This document shows positions 1 through 28,490 of a stretch of DNA of 64,000 nucleotides, piece by piece. Position 1 is the first letter of the stretch; each line of letters opens with the position of its first letter. The notes under the pieces were generated by a model that saw nothing but the letters and a program-made list of their open reading frames with translations, had not been told where the DNA came from and did not search any database. Origin of the DNA: a virus; IMG/VR virus record IMGVR_UViG_3300047510_002062, positions 3,705-67,704 of that record. One strand, 5' to 3'. A program made the translations under genes and the position numbers.

Positions 1-649
1 CATTGGGATTATATTGAGTATATGAGTCAAGAACCATTGATTTTAATGGACCCACTGCATTAAGACCATCAATTTTTAAACCAATAGTATCTGGAACAAA
101 ATTTGTGCAATTTTGTATGTATGGAGATTGATCAAAATACCCAACAATTTCTGGATTGAATGCAAAAATTGCACCTCCAGGATTTGAAGGTCCAATGAAT
201 GACATTTCGGTTACATAATTACCATTAGATACCCAAAATAAATCCCCGCTATTCGCACATTGAACTGATACTTCTCTTAAATTATCTCCAACAATACTTG
301 TTTGTTCTGGAAGTGCAATTGGATTATCTTCAACATATACTCCTGCACTAACTTTAATAACTGTTCCTTCCTTTGCAGCAGCAACTGCTCCTTTAATAGT
401 TGCCTTTGCATCCCCAAGTTTTTTGCCAGTATTATTATCGTTTCCGTCTTTAGTTACGTATAAAACATTTGTTACAGTTGCACCAGCACCAATCCTAGCA
501 ATGTCTGGACTAAACCCAATTCTTTCTCTACGAACATATAATTCCGCATCATTAGTATTCAGGGCTAACTCGCCTAATTGGAGTTGTCCTAAAGATGGTT
601 TACTTCCTGGTGTTGTAGATCGCTTGATGCGGATTATCGGTCTTGCCAT
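1..649 (-). CDS. Tail fibre/virion structural protein with pectin-lyase-like beta-helix region (partial, runs off the window start; not in ORF track)
   Basis: Manual translation from ATG at 647-649: MARPIIRIKRSTTPGSKPSLGQLQLGELALNTNDAELY...NVLYVTKDGNDNNTG...TIKGAVAAA...GVYVEDNP...QSPYIQNCTNF...SMVLDSYTQYN. Paralogous to parts of 6887..11455. Confidence 0.85.
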   Translation of the reverse strand, partial: MARPIIRIKRSTTPGSKPSLGQLQLGELALNTNDAELYVRRERIGFSPDIARIGAGATVTNVLYVTKDGNDNNTGKKLGDAKATIKGAVAAAKEGTVIKVSAGVYVEDNPIALPEQTSIVGDNLREVSVQCANSGDLFWVSNGNYVTEMSFIGPSNPGGAIFAFNPEIVGYFDQSPYIQNCTNFVPDTIGLKIDGLNAVGPLKSMVLDSYTQYNPN

Positions 650-699
650 TTCAGGTGCAGTTCCCTAATTTCCCGTTAATAGGGAGTTTGTATTATTTA

Positions 700-876
700 T
701 TAGAAATCATCAGAGCCATTATCTACGGGAGAACTTCCCTGTAAAGTTATTTGGAGGTCTTCGACTTGTTTTTTTAATTGAATAATTTGGGTTTCAAGCA
801 TGACATTAGCATTAAAAAGATCAAAAGATCTTTGTTGATACATAGAAATCATTGCCTTATAATCTTCTTCAGACAT
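700..876 (-). CDS. Small hypothetical protein, 58 aa, coiled-coil-like (MSEEDYKAMISMYQQRSFDLFNANVMLETQIIQLKKQVEDL...)
   Basis: Manual ORF (ATG 874-876, TAA 700-702) directly downstream of the TATAAATA late promoter at 900-907. Confidence 0.75.
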   Translation of the reverse strand: MSEEDYKAMISMYQQRSFDLFNANVMLETQIIQLKKQVEDLQITLQGSSPVDNGSDDF

Positions 877-11502: not shown

Positions 11503-14500
11503 TTAAGAACTTAGCTGTCCTGCAATGAATGAAGATATTGCTTTTGCTAAAGCAACTCTGTTGTCAATTCTTGGAGATCCTCCTGGTTTTATTGTGTAAG
11601 CAGTACCGTCTACAGCAAGAATAAATCTTGTTGCTACAACATCACTATCACCACCTGGTTCAGGATTTTCATCATTCACTCCTCTATTACCATAAACAAT
11701 TGGATAATTTAAATTAGACCAAGTTCCCAATCCAGATTCCCAAGACCCATTGAGATTAGAAGTTGTCCAAATTGTTGTTGCTCCCTGATCCACTCGCATT
11801 CCCTGACAATTTTCCATAAACAATTCCCAATATGTTTTTCCATTGGGACTAATTGTACCCATAGTAATTGGATTGCCAAAGTCATCCAATAATGGAATAG
11901 CTCTTGTTCCCGTTCCAGCTTCAAATTCAGTTATAGTTGCTTGAGATACTACAAACCCACCTGGAAGAGTTTCTGCTATACCCTTTCCACCAACATCAAT
12001 AGTATTTGGTCCAACTATAAAAGAAGTTCCCGCAAGGCCTGGATTTGTGTTTGGTGATATTAAAGTATTTCTATCGAAGATTTTAGTATTTTCAATATAA
12101 ATTCTTTCCCCTGGAACAAAAGAATGAATACCATTTGTTCTAATTAAAATTGGTTCTTCTGCTCTTACTATAAGAAAATCAACAATATCTGATAAATTAT
12201 CATTTAAAGTGGCATTTTTATTTGACGTCTGTATAACTAACTGATCGTGCCCATCTCCAAAGCAGAATGAATACCAAAGACCGTTATCTGGATTTCTGTA
12301 TCCAGATCCTCCAGTGCCTGGAATTGTTGCTCCGTTCCCCGATATTGGACCATTATAAGTAGCATCTCCAGGTATCTCTATTACTTCTGAAAATGTTTGA
12401 TTTCTTCCTGCAGCAACTTCAAAATCTGTTCCTGCATTTGCATTACTATATACACCCAACACTGTAAATCCATAACCGACTATCGTATAATCCGTATAAG
12501 GTTCTTTTCTTAATCCGGGAAATTTAACACCAGAATAACCAGGTTCAATGCGACTTAAGATATAAACTGTATCACCAGTTTTAATACCTTGTAAGGGTTG
12601 TTCATCATCAGTTTCATCCGATCTTAAAGTTATTGTAGCAATTCCACTATTGCCATTTGTATCATAAATTATATTAGATTCTCCACCATTATCTGTTGTA
12701 GCGTCAGCACCTCTAGTTCCATACGCAAATATTTCAAATATTTCCGCTTTCTTATCAATATCTCCATATTGAAATACTCTACTGGATTTTACTACTCCAC
12801 CTCTGTTTGCCTTCGCAAGAGTAAGCATATCATGAGTTTGCTTAAGTTCTCCTTGACCAGGAGGAGGAGAAGTAAATTTAAGTGTTCCATTCAATCTCCA
12901 AGTTTCTTCAAGTCCTATTGGTTTTGATACTTCTTGTCCAGGAATTGAAGGACTTTGGTATATTGTTGTTATTCCTGAATTTTTTAATCCAGATCCGTCA
13001 GAAGAAATACCAACGTAAGTAAATCCAGTTCCAACGATTGCTCCATTAACACCTACCGATTCGATTGTAATAATTAAATCATTATCTGGAGATTTTCCTC
13101 CCAATTGACTGCCTTGAATTAAGATACTCTCGTTTGGTTGATAGAATTGTCCTCCAGTTGCAAGAGTCACTTGACTATATGTTGTAAAACCTAGCGTAGA
13201 ACTATATTCACCTCTTCTAATAACGTTAAATGCTGCTCCAGATCCGTCTCCAATTGCTTGTTGAAGCGCAAAAGTTCTTGGATCATAATCTAATGCTGAG
13301 TCTGGATCATTTGAGCCTACAGTTCCAGGTGTAGTTAATTCTAATGAATTAATTGCACCACCAGTTTGTGTGGAACTTACTCTTACGACTAAATTATTAT
13401 CTGGACTTATTCCATTAAATGTAGTTCCAGAAACTACAAATTGTTCGTTTTCTCTAAAATTAGCTCCTCTAGATGTATATGCCTGTATAACATATTGTTC
13501 TGCACTTCTTCTTACGGTAATACCAGCATTTCTAGTTACAGATCGTGTAAATGTTCCGGTTTGAGGAGTAAAGTTATAATTTCTAGTTCCATCCCCATCA
13601 GTTAATGGTGAAGGATATGGGGTACTTAATCTAACTTCACTGGGACTTAATACTTCGGAAACTGTTCTCGATCCATTGAAATTTGTAGTACCGGAAATTG
13701 TTAAGGTATCGCCAACCAATAAAGCATGATTTTGATTGAAAAGACTTCCACTTACTGTAAGTCTTGGTCCAACACCGATCTTAACATAATATCCATCAAC
13801 ATCAGTTACTGTATAATCGGAATTTATGCCAGCAGCAAGTGCTGTAGTTGTATTTAATGGAGAAGATCGAACTGCAAATCTTTCTGAATCTATTATTTCA
13901 GAAACAAAATAGTCTCCACCATAACTTGCTTGAAGTGAATTATTATTAGTATTAATGAATACCGCAGTCACTCCAACATCAGATTGAGTAAAACCATGAG
14001 AAGATGTTCTAACAACTCTATCGGAATTGGCAAGTCCTACTCTGAAATTAACGTCCGAAGGTACAAATATGTTATTTGAAGGGTTTCGCGCATTGATTAA
14101 TTGTAAAGAATATGTAGAACCAGTTGTTAGTAATTTAGCATCATAAAAACCAGATTGGAATTGAGTTGTAGAAATTACATCAAGAGGAACATTATTTCCA
14201 ATTTGGAACTTTGTATTATTTAAACCAAGTTTTTCTGCTTCAACGTTATTAAATCTGATTATTGGATCAACATTTCTCAATCCTCCAGTATAACCAAATC
14301 CAGAATTATTGAATACTGTAGAATAATTAGCAGGGTTTGTAGCATTTGTCAATCCCAATAATACTGGATTTACTCCATTGTTTCTATAAACTTTAATGGT
14401 AACATCTTGTGGACTGAATGGTTGATTAGATCCAACAATTCTCAATTCAGATCCATCAACAATGCCAGTTGGTAAAGAAGTTTGACTTAATGTTGCAATC

Positions 14501-17500
14501 GCTGGATATCCAGGATATCCAAGAACTCCAGAAGTACTTATTTGAGTGTAATCTTTAGTCTCATCACTCACGGGTCCGTTTGAAAGTTCGACTATATTTG
14601 CACTGAGAACACTAACAGTATATGTACCATTAAAATTCGCTGGTGAACTACTTTGAACTGTGATACTTTGCCCATTTACAAGATTATGTGAATTAGCACG
14701 AACTCTTAATTTGGAATTATTAAGTCCAACAATTCCCCCAGATCCTTGATTGTATCCATCAAATGTAGATGGTTCAGTTGGAATTATTCCAAATCTATAT
14801 GGAGATGTATTTGTTGCCCAAGTAACTGTATATGTACCATTATAATTAGAATTTGTAGCATTTTGAATTTTTACACTGTCTCCAACTCTTATTGCCGAGG
14901 TAATTGTTGATTCATTTATTCCCACTTGATCCTTATCATAAGTTACTGTCACGCCTTGATTTCTCAATGCAATATAAATTGGATCTCCACTATTTAAAAT
15001 TGCTTGAGTGAAATCTGTACCAACTCCAGAGTTATTGTTTAATCTAAATCTATTATTGTCGATTTTTGTGATAACATATGATCCATTAAAGAATGAATTT
15101 CCTTCAATTTTTACCGTTTGTGCAGTTTGGAACGGATGATTTATTGATGTAACTGTTGCTGGATAGTTTAAAAGACCTGCAACTCCTCCAGTTGCATTTG
15201 CATCATTAAAATCATTAACAAAAACATTTAATGTTGTGCCATTCAGATAAAAACTTGTTGAGTTGATGACAGTTACTACAAATGGATTACCAAAAGTATC
15301 ATAGTTGAATATTCCAACATTTCCTACAGAACCTTGGATTTTAACTTGATCATTAGTAACAAACGGATGAGATCCATTTGTTGTTACTATAGCATCTCTT
15401 ATTAAACCGCTTATTCCACCAGAACCAACCAATCCAAAATTTGTGGAATTGACGGAAACATCATTTCCAGCAAATATGTATGGGTCAGAATTATTAATTA
15501 TTTCACTAACTACTGTAATAGTATCTGAAGTAAAATTGCCACCAAATTGAGTTTGAATATTTTGGATTCCTATTTGATCTCCAACTTGATAAACAATTGG
15601 ATTTTGAAGTCTTACTAGTAATCTAGAACCAATTAATCCAACAGTTCCTCCTATTCCTGGATTTGTATAGTCTGATCCAGTATCTATAGGATTTGCCCCA
15701 GAAGTTAATAGCAGTAATTGATTAGAAGAAATAATGCGAGCACTTTGAATTGTTCCTTCTAAATTGGATTTTGTTGAATTTAATCCTTGTAATTTAACAG
15801 AAATTGTTTGACCAACATTTCCAAATAGAGGTGATCTAAACAAATTACCAAAGGCATTATTTGTAAAATTAATAAATGGCAATAAATTTCTAACTCCAAG
15901 ATTTCCGGTCTCTCCCGATGAGAAGTTTGTTGAAGTAGTTGAATTATAAGCACTAGTTAAAGTTAATGTATTTCCACTTATAGATCCAACAGTATACGAT
16001 AAACCATTAAAGTTTGTTGTTCCATATACATCAAATTGTGATCCAGGACTAAATGTAAATCCAGAAGGTGTAATAGTACCATGAGTAACAAGTAAGGGAG
16101 ATCCAACTCTTCCAGAAATAGTTGATGCATTAACATTCAAAGAACTAGAATATTGAATTGGATTTGCCGTAGATTGATTTCTGAAACTTTCAGATCCAAG
16201 AAGAATTCTTGTGCTATCTAAAATTACAGCATTTGTATAAACTTGATTAAAAAACGTTCCTGGAGAATTTTGTATTTTTAATTGAATAGTAGAATTTGGA
16301 GATCCAAAAACACTAGTATTGGTTACAGTTGCAATTCCAGAACTAGTGTGAATTCCTATTTTACCAGATGTTCCAGGTGTTACAAGTTGTGTTGGTGTTT
16401 GATTTTCCTTCAAAGTAAAAGCATATGGTTCTGTAATAGCAGATTTAATCCCGACAATTACGTATCCATCATTATAAATTGAAGAATTTCCTGTAATACC
16501 AAACGCAGTAATCCCCATTCCAACTTCAAGAGGATATGCTGTTATTGAAGCAGATGCAATACCACTTAAATTTAGTTTATTTCCAGAATTTGTAATTAAG
16601 TCTGCTGCTGTAGGTACAATATTAGTTACAGAATTTGCAAGTCTAAAGGTATTAATTCCTGCCTGTGCTACTCTCCAAGTTCCGTTGTAAACACTATTTT
16701 CATTTCCACTTATCGAAACCAATTCTCCATTATTAAATCCATGAGAAGGTGCATCAACAATTGGAATAAATCTTTCAATAATATAATAACCGCTGTTAAA
16801 TCCAAAAGGAACATTACTTCCTTGACGTGCAAAATTAAAACTAAATCTATCAATACCACCTCTTACATCCGTGACAGTTAATCCATATCCAGTATTAGTA
16901 TAGTCAAATACTGTTCCCGTTTCAAAGATATATACAACATCTCCATTAATTAAATAATCTGTTAAGGAAATATCGTCAGAACCAGGTTGCAAAATACGAA
17001 CTTCATAACTAGCAATTATTCCATTAATATTATTTTCAGCAAAAGTATTTGTGTAATCAAGTAAATATGGATTTTTAACTGTACCTGCATTTAAATTATA
17101 TGCAATACTTGTAATTCCAACGGATTTAATTGTGGCAGGAATTACTAATTCCAACTCTGCTTGATCATATCCAACCGTTGATCCTGCGCCAATAGAGGTA
17201 TTGGTGTAAAACCCTACAGAAGATGTATCATTCACATAGAAAGAAACATTTGGAACTAATTCTGCACCAACTGTCAAAACTGTAGATCCCCATGCAGAAT
17301 ATGATGGATTATTAATTCCTCTAATAATAATTTGATCCCCTTCACTAAAAGTGTGATTTCCAGATGTTTGAAGAACTGCCGTTCCTATAGCAACATTTGA
17401 TGGACCATCAACAACCGGACCGTTATCTGTAACGATTAAAGATCCGCTTACAAATGATAGTGCTCCTGGAGGAGGACTATCTCCTACTGGAATTGTAAAT

Positions 17501-20500
17501 TGTATTACTCCAGGAGAAGGTTGACTTATACTTATTACTGTATATGATCCATTAATGAAAGAATAAGCAGAATCAACACCAGTAATTAATATGTCAAAAG
17601 GAGTAGTAACCTGATTATTTGCAAATACTCCATTGGTATCATTTATAGTAATGGTTGTATTAGTACTACCAATATCAAGTCCTGATATTGCAAATTGATC
17701 TGGATATGCAATAGAACTGATTTGGAAAGCAGTATAACCAATACTTACAATATTGGGAGATGTATATCCAATTGAGGTTACAGAAGAAGAGGAATAACCA
17801 ATACTTGTAATAGTTGCCCCAGTATATGCGACACCAGTTATAGATCCGTGAGTATAAGCAGCACCAACAATTGGATTTGTAGTGTATGAAATGCCGACAA
17901 TTTGAGCGGAAGAATATGCAATGCCAACTGTATTTGACTCATCAATAGCAGTATATGCAATTCCTGCAATTGAATAAGAACTATATGCTATTCCTGTAAT
18001 TGATGTGTTTGTATAACCAATTGAAGTAATGCTTACATGAGTATAAGCAATTCCAGAAGAAGTTCCATTCCTATAAGATATACTAGATATGGGTGTATTA
18101 TCATATCTTATATTAATTGGTCTGGGACTGAAAGTAGTTAGATTTACAGGATAATCAATATAATTTGTTGGTGTTCCAGTATTAGAATTTAGGGAGGAAT
18201 TCACAATAGATCCATTTGCATCTACTGAGGTTATATTAATTACTAGATCATTATTTGAACTTCCTGGTGTTCCGTCAACACCATCCAATTGACCTCCTTT
18301 AACTCTTACGATATCTCCATCGTTATATCCACTTCCAGCATTAGTAACAGTGTATGTGTATGAACCAGTTCCTTTTTGAACACTAATTGATCCTGCGGTA
18401 ACACCACCATATTGATAATTTATTCCTTGCCTATTTGAATAAACATCCTCAACAAGAGAATCAATTCTGAATACAACTGATCCAGAAACAGTATCTTCTC
18501 CAACTAAAGATGCGTCGATATTAATTATATCTCCAATTCTATATCCAGTACCTTCAAATCCTGGAACTACACTTATTGTATATCTATCATTTAATTTACC
18601 AATTGAAAAACTTGCTCCAGTTGATACTGTGTTTGTAGTTGGATTTCCAAATGAATCTAATCTACTTTGATTTGGAAATTGAGTAACTAAAGGATTATCA
18701 TCATCATGAACACCGTAATTTTCAATTTTGAAATGGGAAGCAAATCTCCAATTACCTCCCGCAAAAGTTCCAGGATCTGATGAAAGTTGTATTTCAGAAA
18801 ATTCATGCTTATTTAATTTAACATATTTGTATGAAGCTGGACTTATGCTGTTTACAAATACTGCATCGTAAGTTTCTCCATTAACTTCATCTGAATCATA
18901 ATTTGATATACCAATAACTCTAATATTTCTATATACAAGTTCTTCTTGAAGTGTTCTTGTGACATTTGTTACTGGTGGTGGGAAAAATGGGGATCCTTCC
19001 TCCCAAACTTTAGTACCACCAAAGAAAAATCCATCTCCAGATAATTGCCAAGTATCAGGTGTAACCTCTGTACGACGGAATAAAAGTCTTAATGAACTTG
19101 GATTCTCCGATCCAGATCCGGTAGTAGCAAACTCAAGATCTCCATCAGCTGGGAATGTAGGGTCTCCACCACCAATTTGTGGATTTCCCATAATAATTCT
19201 AAATGGATAAAATCTACCTGCTGTAAGTTGAACATTTGCTGTACTTTCTGCAGTATAAACTGCTGTCCTCTGAGATTTGTTGCTATTGTTATCTGATTCT
19301 CTAATAGCATATCTAAGAGAAGAACTGGATGGACATAATATATTTGCTGTGGTATCTCTCCAGTTGTTGTATACATTATCAACACTAGTTTGATTTATTT
19401 GTCCTGTGAGTGGATCATCTGAAGCAATCCATAAAAAACTAGCTCCAATACTTTGTAATCTAAATCTATAAGTTCCACTAACTAAAGGTTGAAAATATCC
19501 AAGAGCCATCGCACTATAGTCTTGAATATCCGATCTAAATCTATCAATAAATTGAACTGGTCCCCAAAATCCACCTTTTTCTGTATTTGTAATGTTTCTA
19601 AATCTATCAAATCTATTTGGGCTTTTAACAATACTTACATCTTTATATCCTGATCCAGATGGTCCAGTTGAACTTGGATTTGATGGGTTTGGTGGATTTG
19701 TATATCCAGCCAATCTAGTTGCCGGAGTAAAATATGTTCTATTGACTACTTCTGTTCCCCCCAAATTTGTAATTCCCAGTATTCCTTGAGTAGAATCTCC
19801 AAAATTACCACCCTGCTCAGTTCCATTAACATACCAGTTGCAACCTGGATCATCTCTAAGGTTACCCGTACTTTGAGTTCCTAAAGTTAATGGCACAGCA
19901 AGAGAATTAAAAAATTCTCTAAATTCCTCTGATGAAAATTCAGATCCAGATATTTGAACACCATTGGTAAATGATGCTCCTACGCCAGCAGCTCCGTTTT
20001 GATTAAGAGTACTTTCATAATATCCACGATACCTTCTAAAATAAAATCCAGGTTCATTAAATGTATATTTTGAAGTAGTATATCCAACAAAGTTTTTTGT
20101 ACTAACTGCAATTCCAACACCAGACGCATTTATCAATGATGGAGAAGTATTTTCCTGTTCATTTGATGCTGTTATAAAATATGTTGGAATATTTCTTCTT
20201 TGAATGCTATCTAAATATCTTCCTATTTTTGCATTACCAACTCTTCCTTCAGTTATATTTGTAGCAACTTGAGAAGAATCACTATAGTATAAAGAAAAAA
20301 TTGTTCCATGAACATCTTCTGAATATATTCCTGGAGAATTTGAATTTGTTTCTAAATCTACAACTCTATTATTGACACCAAATGATGCATTTGCTGTTCT
20401 ATAAAGTTGTTGAAATCTGGTTGGGGTAGTATTATTTGGAAGATATGTTCCCTCATCCACATCAATATAATTATTTGACCAGGTATTTTTGAATTTATAA

Positions 20501-20907
20501 TACTGATCAAAAGTGGCATCTCCAAGAATCATATAAGGTTGAAATTCAAGAATTTCTGAGCCAGATCCAACTATAGACTGTGTAGTTCCTTTTGACCTCA
20601 GTGTTTGATCTACATAAGTATATAAATTTGGAGAATCTGAAAGACCAACTTTTTTTGAAATTAATTCTTTATGTAGAAATGCCGGGAAAATACCGTCATA
20701 AAACATTGTCAATGTGGATCCAGCACCAATTTGTGTACCGGTAAATTGTGTTGTTCTTGCATCATTATAATCAACTAATCCATCTGAGGCTAAATTCATA
20801 GAGTAAGAAATATCACTATGAAATACAATATTAACTCCTTCGGAAAACAAATTTCCTTTAAAAAGAATAGGACAAAGGTTAGCTACAGAAGAACCGTAAA
20901 ATGCCAT
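11503..20907 (-). CDS. Giant virion structural/adhesin-like protein, 3134 aa (PA14-like domain, repeated beta-modules, putative split vWA)
   Basis: PA14-like YSAMALGYFQPLVSGTYRFRLQS...VQLTAGRFYPFRI; many H(G/P/N)F..GD.V.I.G modules; N-terminal IVFHSDISYSM. Confidence 0.8.
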   Translation of the reverse strand: MAFYGSSVANLCPILFKGNLFSEGVNIVFHSDISYSMNLASDGLVDYNDARTTQFTGTQIGAGSTLTMFYDGIFPAFLHKELISKKVGLSDSPNLYTYVDQTLRSKGTTQSIVGSGSEILEFQPYMILGDATFDQYYKFKNTWSNNYIDVDEGTYLPNNTTPTRFQQLYRTANASFGVNNRVVDLETNSNSPGIYSEDVHGTIFSLYYSDSSQVATNITEGRVGNAKIGRYLDSIQRRNIPTYFITASNEQENTSPSLINASGVGIAVSTKNFVGYTTSKYTFNEPGFYFRRYRGYYESTLNQNGAAGVGASFTNGVQISGSEFSSEEFREFFNSLAVPLTLGTQSTGNLRDDPGCNWYVNGTEQGGNFGDSTQGILGITNLGGTEVVNRTYFTPATRLAGYTNPPNPSNPSSTGPSGSGYKDVSIVKSPNRFDRFRNITNTEKGGFWGPVQFIDRFRSDIQDYSAMALGYFQPLVSGTYRFRLQSIGASFLWIASDDPLTGQINQTSVDNVYNNWRDTTANILCPSSSSLRYAIRESDNNSNKSQRTAVYTAESTANVQLTAGRFYPFRIIMGNPQIGGGDPTFPADGDLEFATTGSGSENPSSLRLLFRRTEVTPDTWQLSGDGFFFGGTKVWEEGSPFFPPPVTNVTRTLQEELVYRNIRVIGISNYDSDEVNGETYDAVFVNSISPASYKYVKLNKHEFSEIQLSSDPGTFAGGNWRFASHFKIENYGVHDDDNPLVTQFPNQSRLDSFGNPTTNTVSTGASFSIGKLNDRYTISVVPGFEGTGYRIGDIINIDASLVGEDTVSGSVVFRIDSLVEDVYSNRQGINYQYGGVTAGSISVQKGTGSYTYTVTNAGSGYNDGDIVRVKGGQLDGVDGTPGSSNNDLVINITSVDANGSIVNSSLNSNTGTPTNYIDYPVNLTTFSPRPINIRYDNTPISSISYRNGTSSGIAYTHVSITSIGYTNTSITGIAYSSYSIAGIAYTAIDESNTVGIAYSSAQIVGISYTTNPIVGAAYTHGSITGVAYTGATITSIGYSSSSVTSIGYTSPNIVSIGYTAFQISSIAYPDQFAISGLDIGSTNTTITINDTNGVFANNQVTTPFDILITGVDSAYSFINGSYTVISISQPSPGVIQFTIPVGDSPPPGALSFVSGSLIVTDNGPVVDGPSNVAIGTAVLQTSGNHTFSEGDQIIIRGINNPSYSAWGSTVLTVGAELVPNVSFYVNDTSSVGFYTNTSIGAGSTVGYDQAELELVIPATIKSVGITSIAYNLNAGTVKNPYLLDYTNTFAENNINGIIASYEVRILQPGSDDISLTDYLINGDVVYIFETGTVFDYTNTGYGLTVTDVRGGIDRFSFNFARQGSNVPFGFNSGYYIIERFIPIVDAPSHGFNNGELVSISGNENSVYNGTWRVAQAGINTFRLANSVTNIVPTAADLITNSGNKLNLSGIASASITAYPLEVGMGITAFGITGNSSIYNDGYVIVGIKSAITEPYAFTLKENQTPTQLVTPGTSGKIGIHTSSGIATVTNTSVFGSPNSTIQLKIQNSPGTFFNQVYTNAVILDSTRILLGSESFRNQSTANPIQYSSSLNVNASTISGRVGSPLLVTHGTITPSGFTFSPGSQFDVYGTTNFNGLSYTVGSISGNTLTLTSAYNSTTSTNFSSGETGNLGVRNLLPFINFTNNAFGNLFRSPLFGNVGQTISVKLQGLNSTKSNLEGTIQSARIISSNQLLLLTSGANPIDTGSDYTNPGIGGTVGLIGSRLLVRLQNPIVYQVGDQIGIQNIQTQFGGNFTSDTITVVSEIINNSDPYIFAGNDVSVNSTNFGLVGSGGISGLIRDAIVTTNGSHPFVTNDQVKIQGSVGNVGIFNYDTFGNPFVVTVINSTSFYLNGTTLNVFVNDFNDANATGGVAGLLNYPATVTSINHPFQTAQTVKIEGNSFFNGSYVITKIDNNRFRLNNNSGVGTDFTQAILNSGDPIYIALRNQGVTVTYDKDQVGINESTITSAIRVGDSVKIQNATNSNYNGTYTVTWATNTSPYRFGIIPTEPSTFDGYNQGSGGIVGLNNSKLRVRANSHNLVNGQSITVQSSSPANFNGTYTVSVLSANIVELSNGPVSDETKDYTQISTSGVLGYPGYPAIATLSQTSLPTGIVDGSELRIVGSNQPFSPQDVTIKVYRNNGVNPVLLGLTNATNPANYSTVFNNSGFGYTGGLRNVDPIIRFNNVEAEKLGLNNTKFQIGNNVPLDVISTTQFQSGFYDAKLLTTGSTYSLQLINARNPSNNIFVPSDVNFRVGLANSDRVVRTSSHGFTQSDVGVTAVFINTNNNSLQASYGGDYFVSEIIDSERFAVRSSPLNTTTALAAGINSDYTVTDVDGYYVKIGVGPRLTVSGSLFNQNHALLVGDTLTISGTTNFNGSRTVSEVLSPSEVRLSTPYPSPLTDGDGTRNYNFTPQTGTFTRSVTRNAGITVRRSAEQYVIQAYTSRGANFRENEQFVVSGTTFNGISPDNNLVVRVSSTQTGGAINSLELTTPGTVGSNDPDSALDYDPRTFALQQAIGDGSGAAFNVIRRGEYSSTLGFTTYSQVTLATGGQFYQPNESILIQGSQLGGKSPDNDLIITIESVGVNGAIVGTGFTYVGISSDGSGLKNSGITTIYQSPSIPGQEVSKPIGLEETWRLNGTLKFTSPPPGQGELKQTHDMLTLAKANRGGVVKSSRVFQYGDIDKKAEIFEIFAYGTRGADATTDNGGESNIIYDTNGNSGIATITLRSDETDDEQPLQGIKTGDTVYILSRIEPGYSGVKFPGLRKEPYTDYTIVGYGFTVLGVYSNANAGTDFEVAAGRNQTFSEVIEIPGDATYNGPISGNGATIPGTGGSGYRNPDNGLWYSFCFGDGHDQLVIQTSNKNATLNDNLSDIVDFLIVRAEEPILIRTNGIHSFVPGERIYIENTKIFDRNTLISPNTNPGLAGTSFIVGPNTIDVGGKGIAETLPGGFVVSQATITEFEAGTGTRAIPLLDDFGNPITMGTISPNGKTYWELFMENCQGMRVDQGATTIWTTSNLNGSWESGLGTWSNLNYPIVYGNRGVNDENPEPGGDSDVVATRFILAVDGTAYTIKPGGSPRIDNRVALAKAISSFIAGQLSS

Positions 20908-20938: not shown

Positions 20939-20946
20939 TATTTATA
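20939..20946 (-). promoter_or_regulatory. T4-type late promoter TATAAATA overlapping the upstream stop codon
   Basis: Exact consensus about 32 nt upstream of the ATG at 20907. Confidence 0.75.
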
Positions 20947-23900
20947 CGTAAGAACCAAAGACACCCAACACTTTTGCAGTTGATGAACTTGAGAAACTTC
21001 CACTACTATCACAGAAGAATGTGAATCCAACTACAAATTCTCCAGAAGTACCGGATGAAGTTACAGAACTAGTTCCATTTAACCATCTAATGTTTGAACT
21101 AGGAATTGTAAATGTTGTTCCTCCAACAGTTATTTGTAATTTTGAAGGAATTCCTGTTGGGCTAGATGGAGAAGATATAACCAATGTGTAGTTATATGTT
21201 CTATTTGGTGTATTTGGAACATTTGTTATATTTAATGTATCAATTGTAGTAGTAAAATTACTATCTCTTCTTGAAACAGGTCCATTTCTAAAGTCAACAG
21301 TTACAACATTAGAAGTCACAGTAAATGATGTATTTACAATATCAGATATTTGACTAAACGTTGATATGCCAGTTACTTGTGCTCCATTGTTAATATTGAA
21401 AGAAGTTCCTCTTAAAGTATTAACAAGTCCTTCAAAATATGCACCATCTCTACCGATATTGCCAGTAGACATCAACTGAGTTGCAGCTGCACGTATTTGG
21501 GAGTAATTATTACTATCAGTTCCAGTAACTGTTTCTCTTACCGGAATAGTATTTCTAGTTGTTGATCCAGAGGTAAATGTTGCAGCATATTCTGTTCTAG
21601 GTAGGAAGTTATTTACAAAGTTTGAATTTAAATTATTTACCAGTGTGGCATTTGCAACTTGAATTGGAGCAGTTGTTTTATCTGCTGGCAAAGTGGATTT
21701 TAAAATACCACCTTCTACCAATCCATTACATCTAAAATCGAGTCTAAATCCAGTAGCAGTACTTCCAAGTTCCCATTTCGGTTTAGCAGCACCTGGACTT
21801 ACCGCAGGTTCTATGTATAATTCAGTATCTTCACCAGTTCTAGAAAACTCTAATACATTTGTTATACCGGCATACCATTGCCACCCATAACCAACATCAC
21901 TTAATGGAACACTATTCCATAATTTATTTACACCAACTCTTCCTACTGCAAAGTCAACTGAAGTTGAAGAAAGTTTATTATCATATATTATTCTAGTTCC
22001 AGTAGTTCTATTGGTAAATGTTGGAGCACCAGTTCCAATTACGGGATCTGCTCCAGCAACACCAAAATTCACCGGTACAATTGGGGATCTATAAACAACA
22101 GTTGCGACACCGACAACTGTGTTTGGAAGACTTGTAGGTGGATATTGAACATTAATCGAAACACCAAAACCAACTGGATCTCCAACAAATTTAATAACTG
22201 GGTTTGCTACTTTTTGTCCATTAAAGTCTGCAGGAATACCTGAACTGAGATCTGGTATGGTTTGACTAAGAGATCCTGTAGCGACACCAATTTGGTTAAG
22301 AGCAGCACTACTTTGTGTAAATGTTACTGTTGTAAGACCGGAATTTTGATTTGTTTGAGCACTCACAACAATTCCAGATCCTTGGAATCTTAATTCTCTA
22401 GTTATTGCTCTTGTAATAGATCCTGCTGTTACATCTACACCATACAAACTATCATTAATCCATCCAAATCCTTGCCACTTGGATTGATTATCTAAAGGAT
22501 CTACAACATATATCCATCCAGCATTTTCTCCTAATTCTGGAGTTCCATTTAAAACAATGTCTCCAATATTGGCAGATTTTGTTGGTCTAGTTGAAGAAAC
22601 TGTTATTTCTCTAGATACTTCTAATTCTCCTCTAATACCTGCCTTTCTAAATTCAATACCATCTTCAGCAGTTGAAGTTATTTTTTCATTAAAGATTGTA
22701 GGTCCACCAAATTCAGAAATAAGTTTTGAATTTGGACCTCCATTTACCTTTATAGATCTATTAATGACAACTTCTTCTGGAGTTAATAAATTATATCCTC
22801 CCTCAGAAACTAATTCTAATGGAACTTCACCAGAAACAGTTGGTATTGGAGCATCATATATTTGATCCTTTCCGTTACTGGTTATTTTTCTATTATTATT
22901 ATAAAAATCTCCATCACTATTCATTGCGGAATATAAAATTGTTCCGCCATTAATCTTTGTGGATTGTGATAGAATTTCTTCTTGTGGCGTCAAAACTCTA
23001 TCTTGTCTTTCTGGTAAAGCAGTTGAATAATTACCTGGACCATAACCAAGGTATTCAAAAGTATGCCCAGAAGCACGAATGATTGAATTTCTTCTAGATT
23101 CTGTAGGTAATACTTTAATTCTTCTAACTAATGAGTTCTTTACGTGTAAATCACGTCTAGTTCCCATTAATGCTCTTTCAACTACTAAAGAATTTGATAT
23201 GATTGTTGATTTTATTCTAACTATTTCATTATCAATTAAAAGATAATCTCCTATATTTAAACCCACTGATGAATTCAAAACAAGAGGAGCACTTCCAGTT
23301 GCTTGCAAATCAGTCTGAACTATTCCAACGTATTTGTCAAAATTATAAAGTAATCTTGAAGATTTAAATTCATTATCTCCAGAAACAGATCCTCTATTTG
23401 CTGTGTTAAATGGTAAAATTGCCTTTATTGTTCCTGTAGTTACTGGTGTTGTACTGGATTTACCCATATCAACACGAACAGAAGTTAAATTATTATTTAA
23501 ATTAGTAACAAAGAAGTTTTCTTTATTGTTAAAGAAGTTGTCAGTAGCACCATAAAGTATTATACTTGATCCCACTCTGAATGGATGACTAGTACTAAAT
23601 CCAATAGTTCCAATTCCAGTAGATGGTGTATATTCAATACTAGAAACTGGAACTTCTAATCCAGTTATAATAGCAATAGAATTATTAGTACTTCCACTTA
23701 CGGATCTTTTAAATGTTGATATAGATTTTGCAGATATTACATCTATTTCTTTTGTTTTTCCAGTATCAATTTTATCAATTATATAATAACCATTATAATC
23801 TTCAATATTTCCTCTATGTGAGCTTATTCCACTTACTCTAATTGAAAAACCTTTACTATTGTTTATGGCATTTACTGATAAACGAGCAGTATTTGATGGA

Positions 23901-26900
23901 ACAAATGTAACTGCTGTTGAAATGCCCACAGGAGTTAATGTATTTCCAATACCATAAGCTGATCCTGGATTTTGTACTGCAATTTCAGATATTTGTCCTG
24001 ATTGAACACGAACAACACAAGTTGCATCAGATCCAGTTGTAGATCCAGCAGCACCAACTAAAGAAACATTATAGTACAATCCATCTACATAATTTGATCC
24101 TTGATTATTGATCGTTAATCTAGTTACTCCATTTAAATTGTGATCAATATTTGTTATTATTTTATGTGTAGTCGCTGTTGTAGATTGAATATCGGAAATA
24201 CTAAAACCTAAATCAAAATCCGCAAATCCTTTAGCCAGAGTTTCTCTGGTTATGCTTCTTCTTGGGTCATTGACAGAGACTTGACCAATTGGATCTGGTA
24301 ACGCAATGGATAAAGATCCAGATGGATTGGGATCGGGATTATCTCTATTTAATTGAGGATAGAGATTTTGAATTGGTTGTGAAAAAGATAACTCTCTAAA
24401 TGGAGTTACATTAGGATTATTAGACGCATTTACTACTGTAAGGTGATAAATTCCATCCTGTCTATCTTTTTCATAAGGTTGTATTTCTTCGGATTTGAAG
24501 ATTTGATATGTGGTTCTAAGACGTTTGTTAATATATCTTGGAAGATCATTTGGACTTCTTGAATTTGTATTATTATTAAAAGTTCCAGGATTTGAAATCA
24601 ATAAGTAAGTAAATTGTCTTGAACTTGTTACATCAAAAACTGTAAAAGTTCCATTGAATCCCCTATCGTCATCACCGAGTAAATTATTTGTACTTATGAC
24701 ATTTTTAATTTCAACTTCATTACCAACTTTTAAATTATGTGGCAATTCTGTAGTTATGGTTACCAAATTAGATTGCCATTGTGCATTTAAAATATATCTA
24801 AAATTCCTTACTTGAGTTGGATTATCAATAGTGACAATACTCAATGGAAAATATTTCGATAGTTCAGTAGAATCACTTGCATTAGTACTTGAAGAATCTT
24901 GAAGAATATAACTATCAATTGGTGGTCTACATGTTAATACATTTTCTTTTGGTATTACATATCTAAACTTATAAAGTTTATCATCATTTGATCTTGTATC
25001 TTGCTTTCTTTTAATATATGTTTTTGGAGTAGCACTTCCAATTTTTTTAACTGGTGTGGCATTATATAATGTAAGTAATTTCGGAAATATTGTATTTGTA
25101 ACCTGATTTACTGTTACATACCAGTTTGTTCTATCACTGTCCCACAAAATAGGACTTCCTGGTTCTCCTGGAGATTTATCAATTACTCTACTTATAAAGT
25201 CAATTATACCACCCTTATCATTTAAAACTACTTCTTTTACTTGGTTTACCGCATCATCTTGAGTTCTTGCAAGTTTTATAGTTCTTAGCAGGTTTCCAGT
25301 GTTTTGATAAACATAATAAATTCTTCCAATTTCCAATCCATCAGGTAAAGGACCACTTACTGGAATTGGTATTACTGATTCTCCAGAACCAAATGTATGT
25401 TCAGTGTCGAATTCAATAATATTATTTGTTATGGAATTAATACCTGTAATACTATTTCTACCAACTCTGTATATTTTTTCTCCCTGAATATTTGCATTAC
25501 CAGCACCTACTGTATTGCTGAATACAACTTCTGCAGTATAGACATCCGTGGATTGAAGATCTGGATCAGTTATATTAACAAAAAGTTTTTCAGTCTTCGA
25601 TCCTCCAACTTTATATCCATTCAGAATGATATTTGGCGGATTGTTAAAATCATTTTCATTTAAAAGATATAATCTTGTAGAGTTATTCGCTTCTACAGTT
25701 TTTGTAACATCTATTGGTAAAAATTCAATGGTTTCTTCTTCAGTTTCAATATCTCTTGGTGTTACAATACTCGTAATATAACCACAATCATCTCTTATAA
25801 ATGCTTCATCCCTAAAACCACTGGATACAAGAGATTTTGCACCAAAGTTTGAGTTGGAGTTTGTAATTGAGTGATCACCACCGGATTCTGCAAGAAAATG
25901 ATTTGCAAATCCAATCGCAAAAACAGAAACTAACTGTAAGAATGCATTATTAGACGCCTTAATATGATAGTTTTCATAACTTGGTCTAAATCTAGATCTT
26001 GAGTTGGTATGGGCGTTAAATTCACCAATTACATAAGTTCCCGTAGTGGTATCATATCTCGCAAAAGCATTGTCATCTTTTTGCAATCCAATACCAGTGT
26101 ATTGGGCAACCACCATACTTCTAAATCCAGTTGCCTTACTTCCATCAGCATGTAAACCGCACATTCCATACACTGATCTAAGAGAACAGTTGAAAACATA
26201 TGGTGATGCAGAACTTACAGTATCTACTGTAATATTTACGGTTCCACCTGATGCATTTGGATTAATTTCTTGAGGTACAGATCCTACAATATATTTGAAA
26301 GTAAAATTATCAACTACTTCAGCAACTGCAAATTGTCCAGAATATCCTGGCTCTGAAATTCCATTAATTTGTATTGGAGTATCTACACTAAGTTGTTCAA
26401 CACGTTCATCTAATATAACTGTTATTTCCGTTGTTCCAACAATACCATTTCCAGATCTAATTGTTCCAATTCCTACTTCTAGGCCTTTTGATCCTACTAC
26501 TCGGTATTCGTCAACTACTGGTTCGATATCAACATCAACTGAGGGGAAATCTGGAGATATTGGTCTTCCAACTCCCAATCCATAAACTAATCCGATTTTT
26601 TGATAGTACATCTCCAAATCGGTAAATTCCGATTCAAAGATATTATTTTCAAAAGAATCCGGTACAAATTCGTCTTGAATTTTTACAGGATTTAAACCAT
26701 CCGCATATTCAAAAACAGTTAATTTGTGGTGAGAAAAATTTGGAACCGTTAAGTTTGCAGTATAGTCCCTATATACAAGTCCGTTTGGATCTCCATCAAG
26801 AATAGTAAATTGCCAAAAATAACATCCACCAGTTACTCTAAAAAGAGCAGTTCTTTCAATGTCATCATTAGTTGGACTGGGAACATAAAGAGGTCTGACC

Positions 26901-27571: not shown

Positions 27572-27588
27572 ATATTTTCTTAATTAAG

Positions 27589-27662
27589 TCGGGATGATAG
27601 GATTTGAACCTACGGCCCCTCGCTCCCAAAGCGAGTGCTCTACCAAACTGAGCTACATCCCG
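27589..27662 (-). tRNA. tRNA-Pro (TGG), no encoded CCA
   Basis: CGGGATGTAGCTCAGTTTGGTAGAGCACTCGCTTTGGGAGCGAGGGGCCGTAGGTTCAAATCCTATCATCCCGA folds as a cloverleaf. Confidence 0.95.
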
Positions 27663-27737
27663 TGGAGCCCCCTATCGGATTTGAACCGATGACCAACGGT
27701 TTACAAAACCGTTGCTCTACCACTGAGCTAAAGAGGC
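27663..27737 (-). tRNA. tRNA-Thr (TGT), CCA encoded
   Basis: GCCTCTTTAGCTCAGTGGTAGAGCAACGGTTTTGTAAACCGTTGGTCATCGGTTCAAATCCGATAGGGGGCTCCA. Confidence 0.95.
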
Positions 27738-27740
27738 AAT

Positions 27741-27820
27741 TGGGGGGCATCCGTATAAACTGGATCTTTTGTACTCCCCCCTTGTGTCTTAGGAGATAAA
27801 CACAACTGAATTGCAGTTGC
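27741..27820 (-). ncRNA. Putative structured small RNA/leader upstream of tRNA-Thr
   Basis: Hairpins CAACTG/CAGTTG, TGTGTTT/AAGACACA and GGGGGG...ATCC/GGAT...CCCCCC between a sigma70 promoter and tRNA-Thr. Confidence 0.45.
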
Positions 27821-27826
27821 TTAAGT

Positions 27827-27855
27827 ATCATAGTATATATTCAAAAATTTGTCAA
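27827..27855 (-). promoter_or_regulatory. sigma70-type early promoter TTGACA-N17-TATGAT
   Basis: Consensus -35, 17-nt spacer, near-consensus -10, upstream of tRNA-Thr/Pro. Confidence 0.8.
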
Positions 27856-27859
27856 GCCA

Positions 27860-28177
27860 TTAATCTTTTGGAATTAATTCTGGTCTATCAACTAAAACTG
27901 GAAAAAGGCATGGATGAACTTCTTCCATTATTAAGTAAGAAGATGATCTATGAAGTTCAGCAGGAGTATAAATTTTTCCGTTTTGATGCTTATCTGCATT
28001 AGCAATTAAAGTTGGGTCCCAAACACTAATCTCTGGTATATCATCAAATGTGTAAGGATAACCTTCAATAAAATACATTTTAACAATGTATTTGCTAGAT
28101 CCAGGTTCAGATGGATCATACCAACACCAATCCATGCTAACACTATATTTGTGAGACATAAAAACCTCTGTCAGCAT
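27860..28177 (-). CDS. Conserved cyanophage hypothetical protein
   Basis: IVKMYFIEGYPYTFDD...SSYLIMEEVHPCLFPV; late-type GATAAATA at 28185-28192 upstream. Confidence 0.7.
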   Translation of the reverse strand: MLTEVFMSHKYSVSMDWCWYDPSEPGSSKYIVKMYFIEGYPYTFDDIPEISVWDPTLIANADKHQNGKIYTPAELHRSSSYLIMEEVHPCLFPVLVDRPELIPKD

Positions 28178-28279
28178 ATGAAAATATTTATCGGGGGTTT
28201 TGATCGATTTTTTTGGCGGGATTTTTTACGACCCTAAAGTGATTTTAAAAGTTGATTTTTGTTGAAGTTTTTGTAAGAA

Positions 28280-28362
28280 TAGGACGAGGGGGACTTGAAC
28301 CCCCACAGGCAATGCCCGACAGATTTTAAGTCTGGTGTGTCTACCGATTCCACCACCGTCCC
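28280..28362 (-). tRNA. tRNA-Leu (TAA)
   Basis: GGGACGGTGGTGGAATCGGTAGACACACCAGACTTAAAATCTG...GGGGTTCAAGTCCCCCTCGTCCTA, long variable arm. Confidence 0.93.
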
Positions 28363-28375
28363 GTGTTGTAAGACA

Positions 28376-28404: not shown

Positions 28405-28405
28405 G

Positions 28406-28486: not shown

Positions 28487-28490
28487 AAGG

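What the first reader, a model, noticed from the sequence alone, without database searches (positions are those of the whole stretch)
13530..18120. Nested architecture: about 14 tandem first beta-strands followed by a similar number of 'headless' modules
At about 17700-18120 the 3134-aa protein has about 14 consecutive units of roughly 10 residues (INIRY, ISSISY, SSGIAY, ITSIGY, ITGIAY, IAGIAY, TVGIAY, IVGISY, IVGAAY, ITGVAY, ITSIGY, VTSIGY, IVSIGY, ISSIAY). This motif resembles the first strand of the I.S.I.Y...A.V.T...H.F..GD.V.I.G beta-module. Downstream come roughly 14-15 modules of about 75-85 aa that start at the second strand and lack that first strand (e.g. AIVTTNGSHPFVTNDQVKIQG, ATVTSINHPFQTAQTVKIEG, LRVRANSHNLVNGQSITVQ). 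The simplest model is that each domain is inserted inside the previous one. That would form a long out-and-back rod in which one extended chain donates a strand to every domain.
Basis: inference. Interest (0 to 1): 0.75.

Follow-up and report, generated by a model that had tools for sequence, protein, structure and literature searches.

The report
Russian-doll barrel rod in cyanophage fibre
A 3,134-residue tail-region protein of a marine cyanophage first writes out 14 short strands and then 14 small barrel domains that each lack their first strand, and the evidence indicates that strands and barrels pair in mirror order, so the domains sit inside one another like Russian dolls, far deeper than any published case.

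Summary
Residues 931-1068 of the minus-strand gene 11503..20907 hold 14 decapeptide units, followed by 17 small beta modules.

The nested reading is supported by three lines of evidence:
- **Counts.** In all 24 full-span family members, modules outside a removable two-module cassette equal units + 1: 13/12, 15/14 and 17/16. Unit number changes at least 4 times on a tree, always with a matching ±2 modules.
- **AlphaFold2 models.** E1-FCCH-type barrels align discontinuously. Unit 14 plus M2 skips M1, and unit 11 plus M7 skips 566 residues. This is the mirrored register the model predicts.
- **Truncation.** Removing M3-M12 drops the best unit block (residues 131-140, unit 11 and the start of unit 12) from pLDDT 84 to 35. 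The block alone never folds confidently.

M1 and M3 are complete domains, and the cassette carries its own donor strand.

Caveats: model confidence is low (mean pLDDT 59 and 56), only 2 of 14 levels are shown explicitly, and oligomeric state is untested.

The closest published case is the six-level nest in Si3 of cyanobacterial RNA polymerase. This scan already reported the same architecture on other DNA (e1-5881416, a 2,974-residue relative).

The parts
11503..20907 (-). Gene for the 3134-aa protein (P0001), in the tail-fibre/baseplate gene cluster of a T4-like cyanophage fragment
   Evidence: The neighbouring genes match tail-fibre and baseplate-hub PHROGs. The neighbouring fibre matches 459 Synechococcus/Prochlorococcus phage records. 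The record is a virus contig of 67,704 bases, estimated 32% complete.
17704..18117 (-). Block of 14 decapeptide units (aa 931-1068, consensus x-I-x-G-I-A-Y-t-x-x), read as the first strands (beta1) of 14 barrels
   Evidence: The units are read, and the shuffle control is. The block is 53% identical on average across the family, among the best conserved parts of the protein.
17704..17721 (-). Unit 14 (aa 1063-1068), first strand of the M2 barrel; followed by the four-residue turn YPDQ where the chain reverses
   Evidence: In model 2, 18 of 50 rows span 151-155..343-346 with 74-88 aligned. In model 1, 22 of 50 rows span 153-155..343-346 with 71-84 aligned. The strand at model residues 155-163 keeps pLDDT 62-81 in model 2.
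17794..17811 (-). Unit 11 (aa 1033-1038), first strand of the M7 barrel in AlphaFold2 model 1
   Evidence: In model 1, 21 of 50 rows start at model residues 122-128. Fourteen of them end at 769-771 with 63-78 aligned; the other seven end at 834-933, and six of those have 72-80 aligned. The 10-residue pLDDT block holding this unit falls from 84 to 35 once M3-M12 are removed.
17395..17703 (-). M1 (aa 1069-1171): the complete innermost domain at the hairpin tip, and the most variable part of the protein
   Evidence: It aligns contiguously (model 166/167..256) to the phage phi92 endosialidase barrel 4hiz_A, with Z 7.5-7.7, rmsd 2.2 and 77 aligned. Mean pairwise identity is 26%, against 37-65% for the other regions.
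17161..17394 (-). M2 (aa 1172-1249): headless barrel completed by unit 14
   Evidence: The UBA1 FCCH domain 9mc4_A aligns with Z 8.5-8.7, rmsd 2.4-2.5 and 78-79 aligned. 4p22_B aligns with Z 8.6, rmsd 2.4 and 78 aligned.
16534..17160 (-). M3/M4 cassette (aa 1250-1458): a unit-like strand (SVGITSIAY), the complete barrel M3, then the headless M4. It is gained or lost without changing the block.
   Evidence: It is absent from 12 of 24 full-span relatives, with at least 6 changes on the tree. M3 aligns contiguously (model 374/376..476/477) to reductase FAD-binding barrels at Z 5.4-6.5. The nesting of M3 inside M4 is inferred from sequence only, because AlphaFold2 confidence is low here.
13540..16533 (-). 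M5-M17 (aa 1459-2456): 13 headless barrels of 64-86 aa, assigned to units 13 down to 1 in mirror order
   Evidence: The module alignment is and the profile hits. Counts match units in 24 of 24 relatives. The register is anchored at unit 14 with M2 and unit 11 with M7. All other levels are inferred.
15883..16095 (-). M7 (aa 1605-1675): barrel completed by unit 11 in model 1
   Evidence: pLDDT is 78-86. 9jlf_E aligns with Z 8.4, rmsd 2.5 and 78 aligned over model 125..770. E1 FCCH 4p22_B aligns with Z 8.2, rmsd 2.3 and 73 aligned over 125..769.
19177..19524 (-). GLEYA/PA14-type sugar-binding domain (aa 462-577) in the N-terminal part
   Evidence: Pfam GLEYA scores 26.7 bits (cut-off 26.2). PA14 scores 23.1 bits, below its cut-off of 24.

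Best explanation
Residues 931-2456 form one long out-and-back rod of self-nested small beta-barrels.

**Path of the chain.**
- It first runs from base to tip as a nearly straight ladder of 14 ten-residue strands.
- It reverses at a four-residue turn (YPDQ) into M1, a complete barrel at the tip.
- It returns through 14 barrels that each lack their first strand.
- Each returning barrel closes on the mirrored strand of the ladder: unit 14 with M2, 13 with M5, 12 with M6, 11 with M7, and so on to unit 1 with M17.
- Topologically, every barrel is inserted into the beta1-beta2 loop of the next one outwards.

**Side unit.** The removable cassette (its own strand, the complete M3 and the headless M4) is a self-contained two-level nest sitting near the tip.

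**What is shown.**
- The one-to-one count across the family.
- Discontinuous barrels at two levels of the AlphaFold2 model.
- Dependence of the ordering of units 10-12 on the distant modules.

**What is inferred.**
- The other 12 levels.
- A rod length of up to about 46 nm (14 x 10 residues x 0.33 nm).
- Both chain ends lying together at one end of the rod.
- A role as the shaft of a host-recognition fibre that displays the fast-evolving M1/cassette tip.
- Folding that zips from the tip towards the base as the modules emerge from the ribosome.
For: **1. Counts.**
- Among the 24 relatives that span the whole array, modules outside the cassette equal units + 1 in every one.
- That is 15/14 in 18 proteins, 17/16 in 3 and 13/12 in 3.
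- Units were read by eye. Block lengths corroborate them: 138-144, 161 and 121-124 aa.
- Modules were counted with a profile. I added M1 by hand where the profile missed it and set aside the cassette.

**2. Coupled changes.** On a tree built from columns outside the array (24 rows), unit number changes at least 4 times, always together with ±2 modules. The cassette changes at least 6 times without touching the block, and it carries its own unit-like strand.

**3. Position of the indels.** The two extra units of P0004 and P0010 lie between units 9 and 11, and their two extra modules lie at M7/M8. That is the mirrored position.

**4. Model 1 (aa 905-2065).**
- Of 50 VIA-align rows, 22 span model 153-155..343-346 with 71-84 aligned. 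That is unit 14 plus M2.
- Another 21 rows start at 122-128. Fourteen of these end at 769-771 with 63-78 aligned, which is unit 11 plus M7 (71 aa). The other seven end at 834-933.
- The best rows are 9mc4_A (Z 8.5), 9jlf_E (Z 8.4) and 4p22_B (Z 8.2), with rmsd 2.3-2.5.
- Model 2 repeats the unit 14 plus M2 result in 18 of 50 rows.

**5. Extended chain.** Units 10-12 are strands separated by only 1-2 residues, so they form an extended chain and not hairpins.

**6. Truncation test.** With M3-M12 removed, the 10-residue pLDDT blocks over units 10-12 fall from 42/65/84/48 to 37/36/35/31. Unit 14 stays ordered.

**7. Variable tip.** M1 is the least conserved region at 26% identity.
Against: - Both models have low overall confidence: mean pLDDT 59.1 with pTM 0.35, and 55.8 with pTM 0.49.
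- Units 1-9 were left as coil at pLDDT 22-25, although the predicted partners of units 6-9 (M9-M12) were in the construct. Unit 13 was below 50 in both models.
- Only 2 of 14 levels are explicit. VIA-align reports only the first and last aligned residue, and I never saw coordinates, contacts or error maps.
- In model 2, units 1-13 take a solenoid-like shape. It matches the CsgA fibril (Z 8.6, rmsd 9.1), CAP (Z 7.3) and RTX blocks (Z 6.2-7.0), in 19 of 50 rows. Their pLDDT is only 25-37.
- Placement of the two-unit deletion in P0021/P0024 is ambiguous. MAFFT puts it at units 2-3, while a pairwise alignment puts it at units 9-10.
- The family is mosaic, so the four coupled changes may include transfers rather than separate mutations.
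- Phage fibres are usually trimers, and only monomers were modelled.
Confidence: 0.78

Rival explanations
1. Beads on a string plus an independent repeat domain. The 14 decapeptides fold on their own into a beta-solenoid or flat sheet, perhaps only in a trimer. The downstream modules are self-sufficient five-stranded barrels strung one after another.
For: - In model 2, units 1-13 are drawn as a solenoid-like coil that matches CsgA, CAP and RTX folds at Z 6-8.6, in 19 of 50 rows.
- M9-M12 reach pLDDT 55-89 in 10-residue blocks of model 1 without any unit attached.
- Foldseek's best match for model 1 is FMG1B, a plain chain of small beta domains (E 3e-7, TMq 0.10).
- Tail fibres are normally trimers, and a trimeric shaft would not appear in a monomer prediction.
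Against: - It gives no reason for units to equal headless modules in 24 of 24 relatives, or for the four coupled ±2 changes.
- The solenoid has pLDDT 25-37, and in model 1 the same units are plain coil.
- The discontinuous barrel alignments over 154..345 and 125..770 contradict it at two levels.
- Two units in a solenoid add about 0.5 nm of length, whereas two modules add several nm, so length matching cannot explain the coupling. This last point is inference.
Confidence: 0.1
2. Strand donation between chains. The units of one subunit complete the headless barrels of a neighbouring subunit, as in donor-strand exchange of chaperone-usher pili, giving an antiparallel dimer or a polymer and not a monomeric hairpin.
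For: It predicts the same one-to-one count. It would also explain why AlphaFold2, run on a single chain, placed only a few units. Donor-strand complementation is an established way of building fibres; that statement is recalled knowledge, not from a call.
Against: - Unit 14 and the first strand of M1 form a tight hairpin with a four-residue turn, at pLDDT 62-81 in model 2 and 53-72 in model 1.
- The single-chain model already closes M2 and M7 with units of the same chain, in mirror order.
- The extra units and extra modules sit at mirrored positions. This fits a fold-back; an antiparallel pair of chains would give the same mirror order, so only parallel swap arrangements are excluded.
Confidence: 0.07
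3. Partial nesting only. The innermost few levels (units 10-14) are truly nested, and the outer units 1-9 form a flexible or differently folded linker.
For: AlphaFold2 ordered only units 10-12 and 14. It left units 1-9 at pLDDT 22-25 although M9-M12 were present.
Against: - The count rule involves all units: 12, 14 or 16 units against 13, 15 or 17 modules.
- The outer units are as well conserved as the inner ones.
- With 26 sequences and near-identical units, a failure to find long-range pairs is expected. This last point is inference.
Confidence: 0.05

Closest known systems
Si3 insertion of cyanobacterial RNA polymerase beta' (RpoC2): recursively nested domains, described as six-level nesting in a survey of 2.7 million domains (PMC13114784; abstract and passages read)
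   Same: Both have a recursive A1-B1-C-B2-A2 architecture in which copies of one small beta domain are inserted into each other, giving an elongated out-and-back structure.
   Different: - Here there are 14 levels (12-16 in relatives) against six.
- All first strands are gathered into a regular decapeptide array.
- The fold resembles the E1 FCCH / endosialidase barrel, and no sandwich-barrel hybrid structure appeared among the 50 rows shown.
- The protein is a virion protein, not an enzyme insertion.
'Russian doll' domain organisation of contractile sheath proteins (T4 gp18, diffocin CD1363, pyocin sheath; PMC6088184, passages read)
   Same: It is a phage tail protein in which each domain is an insertion into the previous one.
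   Different: Sheaths have two to four levels built from different folds. This protein has 14 levels of one repeated fold, with a count that varies between relatives.
E1 ubiquitin-activating enzyme FCCH domain, and the similar small barrels of phage tail proteins (phi92 endosialidase 4hiz, FCWL1 9jlf_E, Mystique tail tube 9n71_B)
   Same: The fold of the single module matches: Z 8.1-8.7, rmsd 2.3-2.6 over 73-79 residues at 12-19% identity.
   Different: No Pfam membership: PF16190 gives no hit in P0001, and 25.2 bits (cut-off 29.5) in relative P0009. The known examples are contiguous single domains.
Donor-strand complementation in chaperone-usher pili and tandem beta-zipper binding (recalled, not checked in a paper)
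   Same: A short extended strand supplied from elsewhere completes an otherwise incomplete beta domain, one strand per domain along a fibre.
   Different: In those systems the strand comes from another molecule. Here it most likely comes from the same chain, hundreds of residues upstream.
Earlier report of this scan on other DNA (e1-5881416): a 2,974-residue cyanophage protein with about 15 strands and about 15 headless barrels
   Same: It has the same family and the same reading. The length equals that of family member P0007.
   Different: It is an AI note, not a publication. This report adds the units + 1 rule, the cassette with its own strand, the truncation test, and two explicit levels for the window's own protein.

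Membership tests
Recursive nested domain insertion (A1-B1-C-B2-A2) | One domain's chain is interrupted by another complete domain | tested here: met
   Barrel structures align over model 153-155..343-346 with 71-84 aligned residues, skipping the contiguous M1 domain (166..256). This holds in 22 of 50 rows for model 1 and 18 of 50 for model 2 (74-88 aligned, starts 151-155). It is a prediction and not a solved structure.
Recursive nested domain insertion (A1-B1-C-B2-A2) | The inserted domain is itself a host (two or more levels, mirror order) | tested here: met
   Unit 11 plus M7 (model 125..770) encloses units 12-14 and M1-M6. Unit 14 plus M2 encloses M1.
Recursive nested domain insertion (A1-B1-C-B2-A2) | All 14 levels nested | tested here: inconclusive
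   The count rule holds in 24 of 24 relatives. However, AlphaFold2 left units 1-9 and unit 13 unplaced.
E1_FCCH (Pfam PF16190) | Score at or above Pfam's gathering cut-off (29.5 bits) | tested here: not met
   There is no hit at E up to 1 in aa 925-2460 of P0001. Relative P0009 scores 25.2 bits at aa 1722-1773.
E1_FCCH (Pfam PF16190) | Small barrel fold of about 80 residues | tested here: met
   9mc4_A aligns at Z 8.5-8.7, 4p22_B at Z 8.2-8.6 and 2v31 at Z 8.0, with rmsd 2.3-2.5 and 73-79 aligned. The tool notes that Z near 8 is only just above what unrelated models reach.
Decapeptide repeat region (Pfam PF25296) | Score at or above the cut-off of 45 bits | tested here: not met
   The window's block scores 12.9 bits. 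P0010 and P0012 score 33.0 and 32.5 bits. True members (repeats of the GY[TS]A.EL type) score 118-371 bits. The PF25296 label on P0010, P0012 and P0013 is a sub-threshold match.
Independent beta-solenoid repeat (CsgA / RTX / CAP type) | The block folds confidently on its own | tested here: inconclusive
   Model 2 gives a solenoid-like shape (Z 6-8.6, 19 of 50 rows) but at pLDDT 25-37. Model 1 gives coil. Trimers were not modelled.
Phage tail fibre proteins | Sequence match to a tail-fibre family | tested here: not met
   There are 0 PHROG families at E up to 0.01. tblastn finds no match in 50,697 phage records for aa 1-700 or for aa 930-2459.
Phage tail fibre proteins | Gene lies in the tail-fibre/baseplate cluster | tested here: met
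   It is flanked by genes matching tail-fibre PHROGs, and a baseplate hub lies upstream. The gene order is the same as in Synechococcus phage S-SCSM1, where this slot holds an unrelated 1,345-aa virion protein.
Phage tail fibre proteins | Homotrimeric assembly | not testable with these tools
   Only single-chain predictions were available.

The most novel reading that the evidence does not exclude
The rod is a true 14-level nest (12-16 levels in relatives, plus a two-level side nest) of one barrel fold. That is more than twice the deepest nesting in print.

Its length evolves in matched steps of two strands plus two barrels. It folds as a zipper from the tip back to the base, with the 14 strands waiting, perhaps in a temporary solenoid, until each barrel is made.

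This would be a distinct way of building a stiff monomeric fibre of adjustable length with both chain ends at one end.
Probability: 0.55. Interest if true: 0.85.

Novelty: new variant of a known kind. Interest (0 to 1): 0.78.

Why it matters
**Depth of nesting.** Domain insertion is common, but deep recursion is rare. A 2026 survey of 2.7 million domains singles out six levels in cyanobacterial RNA polymerase as its extreme case (PMC13114784). A 14-level nest of one fold, with all first strands lined up as a decapeptide array, would be a new extreme.

**A folding problem.** The first 140 residues of the array cannot find their partners until up to 1,400 further residues have been made.

**An evolutionary puzzle.** Strand and barrel numbers stay matched although the two sites lie about 600 residues apart, and they change only in pairs.

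**Practical uses.**
- It explains a class of giant uncharacterised cyanophage virion proteins. These have no match in 50,697 deposited phage genomes.
- It warns that tandem short repeats ahead of domain arrays may be detached first strands.
- It suggests a natural scaffold for rods of set length that display a variable tip.

Tried and rejected
**Sequence and family searches that found nothing useful**
- Pfam on P0001 gave only GLEYA/PA14 at aa 462-577. PHROGs gave nothing.
- megablast and tblastn against the phage collection found no match for the array or for the N-terminal 700 aa.
- A sequence search of the Protein Data Bank with M9-M13 returned 13 chains at E 0.47-2.1, none meaningful.

**The exhaustive protein search**
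- It returned 68 proteins, of which 7 are family members (P0006, P0012, P0022-P0026).
- I read 19 of the other 61. All are unrelated repeats, mostly of the GY[TS]A.EL type, which is what Pfam PF25296 really models.
- I did not read the remaining 42. Nine of them (P0033, P0039, P0044, P0048, P0049, P0052, P0071, P0077, P0084) match only the M12-M13 part of the query.
- I first took small proteins with such repeats as evidence that the block folds alone. I dropped that once their sequences showed they are not homologous.

**Ideas dropped**
- I first thought the closing 'sG.vGL' strand of each module was the missing first strand of the next module, which would leave no module headless. The barrel alignments begin in the decapeptide block and end at that closing strand, so I dropped this.
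- Foldseek on model 1 gave only generic chains of small beta domains (FMG1B, Spt5). The FMG1B paper describes a plain chain of 34 repeats and does not contain the words 'hairpin' or 'antiparallel'.

**Tests not attempted**
- I did not try residue-level covariation between units and modules, because there are only about eight independent lineages.

**Literature searches**
- 'decapeptide repeat' with 'phage': 6 papers, none relevant.
- Cyanophage tail-fibre cryo-EM terms: 98 papers, 20 titles seen.
- Nested or inserted domain terms, and 'FCCH' with 'phage' and 'tail'.
- None of these turned up a description of this protein family or of nesting this deep.

Full report
**What is there.**
- The window is a 64-kb part of a 67.7-kb virus contig, estimated 32% complete. 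Almost all genes lie on the minus strand.
- The gene at 11503..20907 encodes 3134 aa, here called P0001.
- Its neighbours match tail-fibre and baseplate-hub families.
- The upstream fibre gene matches 459 Synechococcus, Prochlorococcus and related phage records. Gene order follows Synechococcus phage S-SCSM1. The virus is therefore a T4-like cyanophage.
- P0001 itself matches no PHROG. It matches nothing in 50,697 deposited phage genomes.
- Its only Pfam hit is a GLEYA/PA14-type domain at aa 462-577.

**The observation.**
- Residues 931-1068 hold 14 units of ten residues, with one linker three residues longer.
- A loose motif hits 13 times in the block, against at most 4 in any 145-aa window across 1000 shuffles.
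- The DNA is not a recent tandem duplication.
- I delimit 17 modules downstream, aa 1069-2456. Fourteen of them align to one pattern that starts at the second strand and ends with a closing 'sG.vGL' strand.

**Relatives.**
- Two protein searches gave 25 relatives at 30-94% identity over the aligned array region. Two of them are truncated fragments.
- The other 61 hits of the exhaustive search are not family. All 19 that I read are unrelated repeats.
- Those repeats are what Pfam PF25296 'Decapeptide' models. The window's block scores 12.9 bits against a cut-off of 45.

**Test 1: covariation.**
- Units number 14 in 18 full-span proteins, 16 in 3 and 12 in 3. I read these by eye. Block lengths of 138-144, 161 and 121-124 aa corroborate them.
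- A module profile counts the modules. I added M1 where the profile missed it, and set aside a two-module cassette (M3 and M4, about 200 aa).
- After that, modules number 15, 17 and 13 respectively. That is units + 1 in 24 of 24 proteins.
- On a tree built from columns outside the array, unit number changes at least 4 times, always with ±2 modules.
- The cassette changes at least 6 times with no change in the block. It begins with its own unit-like strand (SVGITSIAY), followed by a complete barrel (M3) and a headless one (M4).
- The rule 'one donor strand per headless module' therefore still holds. P0001 has 15 donor strands and 15 headless modules, with M1 and M3 complete.
- The extra units of P0004 and P0010 lie between units 9 and 11, and their extra modules lie at M7/M8, the mirrored position.
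- Placement of the deletion in P0021/P0024 is ambiguous.
- The family is mosaic, so some of the 'changes' may be transfers.

**Test 2: structure prediction.**
- Model 1 covers aa 905-2065 with a 26-sequence alignment. Mean pLDDT is 59.1 and pTM is 0.35.
  - Units 1-9 are coil at pLDDT 22-25.
  - Units 10-12 are strands separated by only 1-2 residues, so they form one extended chain. Their pLDDT reaches 84.
  - Unit 14 forms a hairpin with the first strand of M1.
  - M6 and M7 are the best-predicted modules (78-90).
- Model 2 covers aa 905-1250: all units, but only M1 and M2.
  - Units 1-13 drop to pLDDT 25-37. The blocks over units 10-12 fall from 42/65/84/48 to 37/36/35/31.
  - Unit 14, M1 and M2 stay ordered.
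- The middle units are therefore ordered only when distant modules are present. The block does not fold confidently alone.

**Test 3: which strand belongs to which barrel.** I had no coordinates, so I used the first and last aligned residues that VIA-align reports.
- For model 1, all 50 listed rows fall into four classes:
  - 22 rows span 153-155..343-346 with 71-84 aligned. This is unit 14 plus M2, skipping M1.
  - 21 rows start at 122-128. Fourteen of them end at 769-771 with 63-78 aligned; since M7 has only 71 residues, this is unit 11 plus M7. The other seven end at 834-933.
  - 5 rows cover M1 alone.
  - 2 rows cover M3 alone.
- The best rows are the UBA1 FCCH domain 9mc4_A (Z 8.5, rmsd 2.4, 78 aligned), phage FCWL1 9jlf_E (Z 8.4, rmsd 2.5, 78) and E1 fragment 4p22_B (Z 8.2, rmsd 2.3, 73).
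- Model 2 repeats the unit 14 plus M2 result in 18 of 50 rows.
- The two anchors fix the register: 14 with M2, 13 with M5, 12 with M6, 11 with M7. This skips the cassette and leaves M1 as the complete innermost domain, which explains the 'units + 1' rule.

**Evidence against.**
- Confidence is low overall. Only 2 of 14 levels are explicit.
- Units 6-9 stayed disordered although their predicted partners were present.
- In model 2, the unpaired units take a solenoid-like shape that matches CsgA, CAP and RTX folds at Z 6-8.6, in 19 of 50 rows. This happens at pLDDT 25-37.
- The tool notes that Z near 8 is only just above what unrelated models reach.
- Only monomers were modelled, so strand donation between chains and a trimeric shaft are not excluded.

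**How it most likely works.**
- The chain runs out as a ladder of first strands, turns at M1, and returns through barrels that close on the ladder in mirror order.
- The result is a stiff rod of up to about 46 nm with both ends of the array at one end. The length and end positions are inferred.
- M1 is the least conserved region, at 26% identity against 37-65% elsewhere. Close relatives differ most between M1 and M4.
- I therefore read the hairpin tip and its cassette as the host-facing end. This too is inferred.

**Comparison with what is known.**
- Nested insertion is a known principle.
- A 2026 survey names six levels in the Si3 region of cyanobacterial RNA polymerase as its most complex case (PMC13114784; abstract and passages read).
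- Contractile sheath proteins have a 'Russian doll' of two to four domains (PMC6088184; passages read).
- My searches found no description of this family or of nesting this deep.
- This scan reported the same architecture earlier on other DNA: e1-5881416, a 2,974-residue protein of the same length as P0007. I treat that note as a lead and not as evidence.

**Verdict.** I class it as a new variant of a known kind, namely recursive domain insertion taken to 14 levels.

Noticed in passing
window 17704-18117 and relatives P0002-P0026: Unit number is always even (12, 14 or 16). It changes only in steps of two units together with two modules, although the two sites lie about 600 residues apart. How the matched states arise is unexplained.
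   Followed up: partly
window 18193-18675 and 12958-13530: Two domains of one type (pattern G.GY..GD..I.G..LGG...NDL.I.V.sV) lie just before the decapeptide block, and two more lie just after the last module. This mirror-like layout fits a protein-wide fold-back. Another first-reader note (e1-6168580) suggests that a vWA-like domain is split between the two ends of the protein.
   Followed up: no
P0004, P0005, P0006, P0010, P0016: The family is mosaic. P0004 resembles P0005 over most of its length but resembles P0010 across M1-M2. P0006 appears to share long identical stretches with P0016 (N-terminal part) and with P0005 (C-terminal part). This points to frequent recombination between co-occurring phages.
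   Followed up: partly
window 11503-20907: The 3134-aa protein has no tblastn match in 50,697 deposited phage genomes, while the neighbouring fibre gene matches 459 of them. In Synechococcus phage S-SCSM1 the same slot holds an unrelated 1,345-aa protein annotated as an outer capsid or virion protein.
   Followed up: partly
P0010, P0012, P0013: The precomputed label PF25296 ('Decapeptide') on these relatives is a sub-threshold match, about 33 bits against a cut-off of 45. That Pfam family models unrelated GY[TS]A.EL-type repeats.
   Followed up: yes
window 27588-28563: A cluster of five tRNA genes (Pro, Thr, Leu, Leu, Met) lies on the minus strand between the fibre genes and the baseplate genes. 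S-SCSM1 has tRNAs at the same position.
   Followed up: no
window 20942-27349: The 2135-aa tail-fibre protein contains at least one contiguous, complete copy of the barrel with its own first strand (VSSIEY, followed by a second strand and an HPF motif). This shows what the un-nested form of the module looks like.
   Followed up: no
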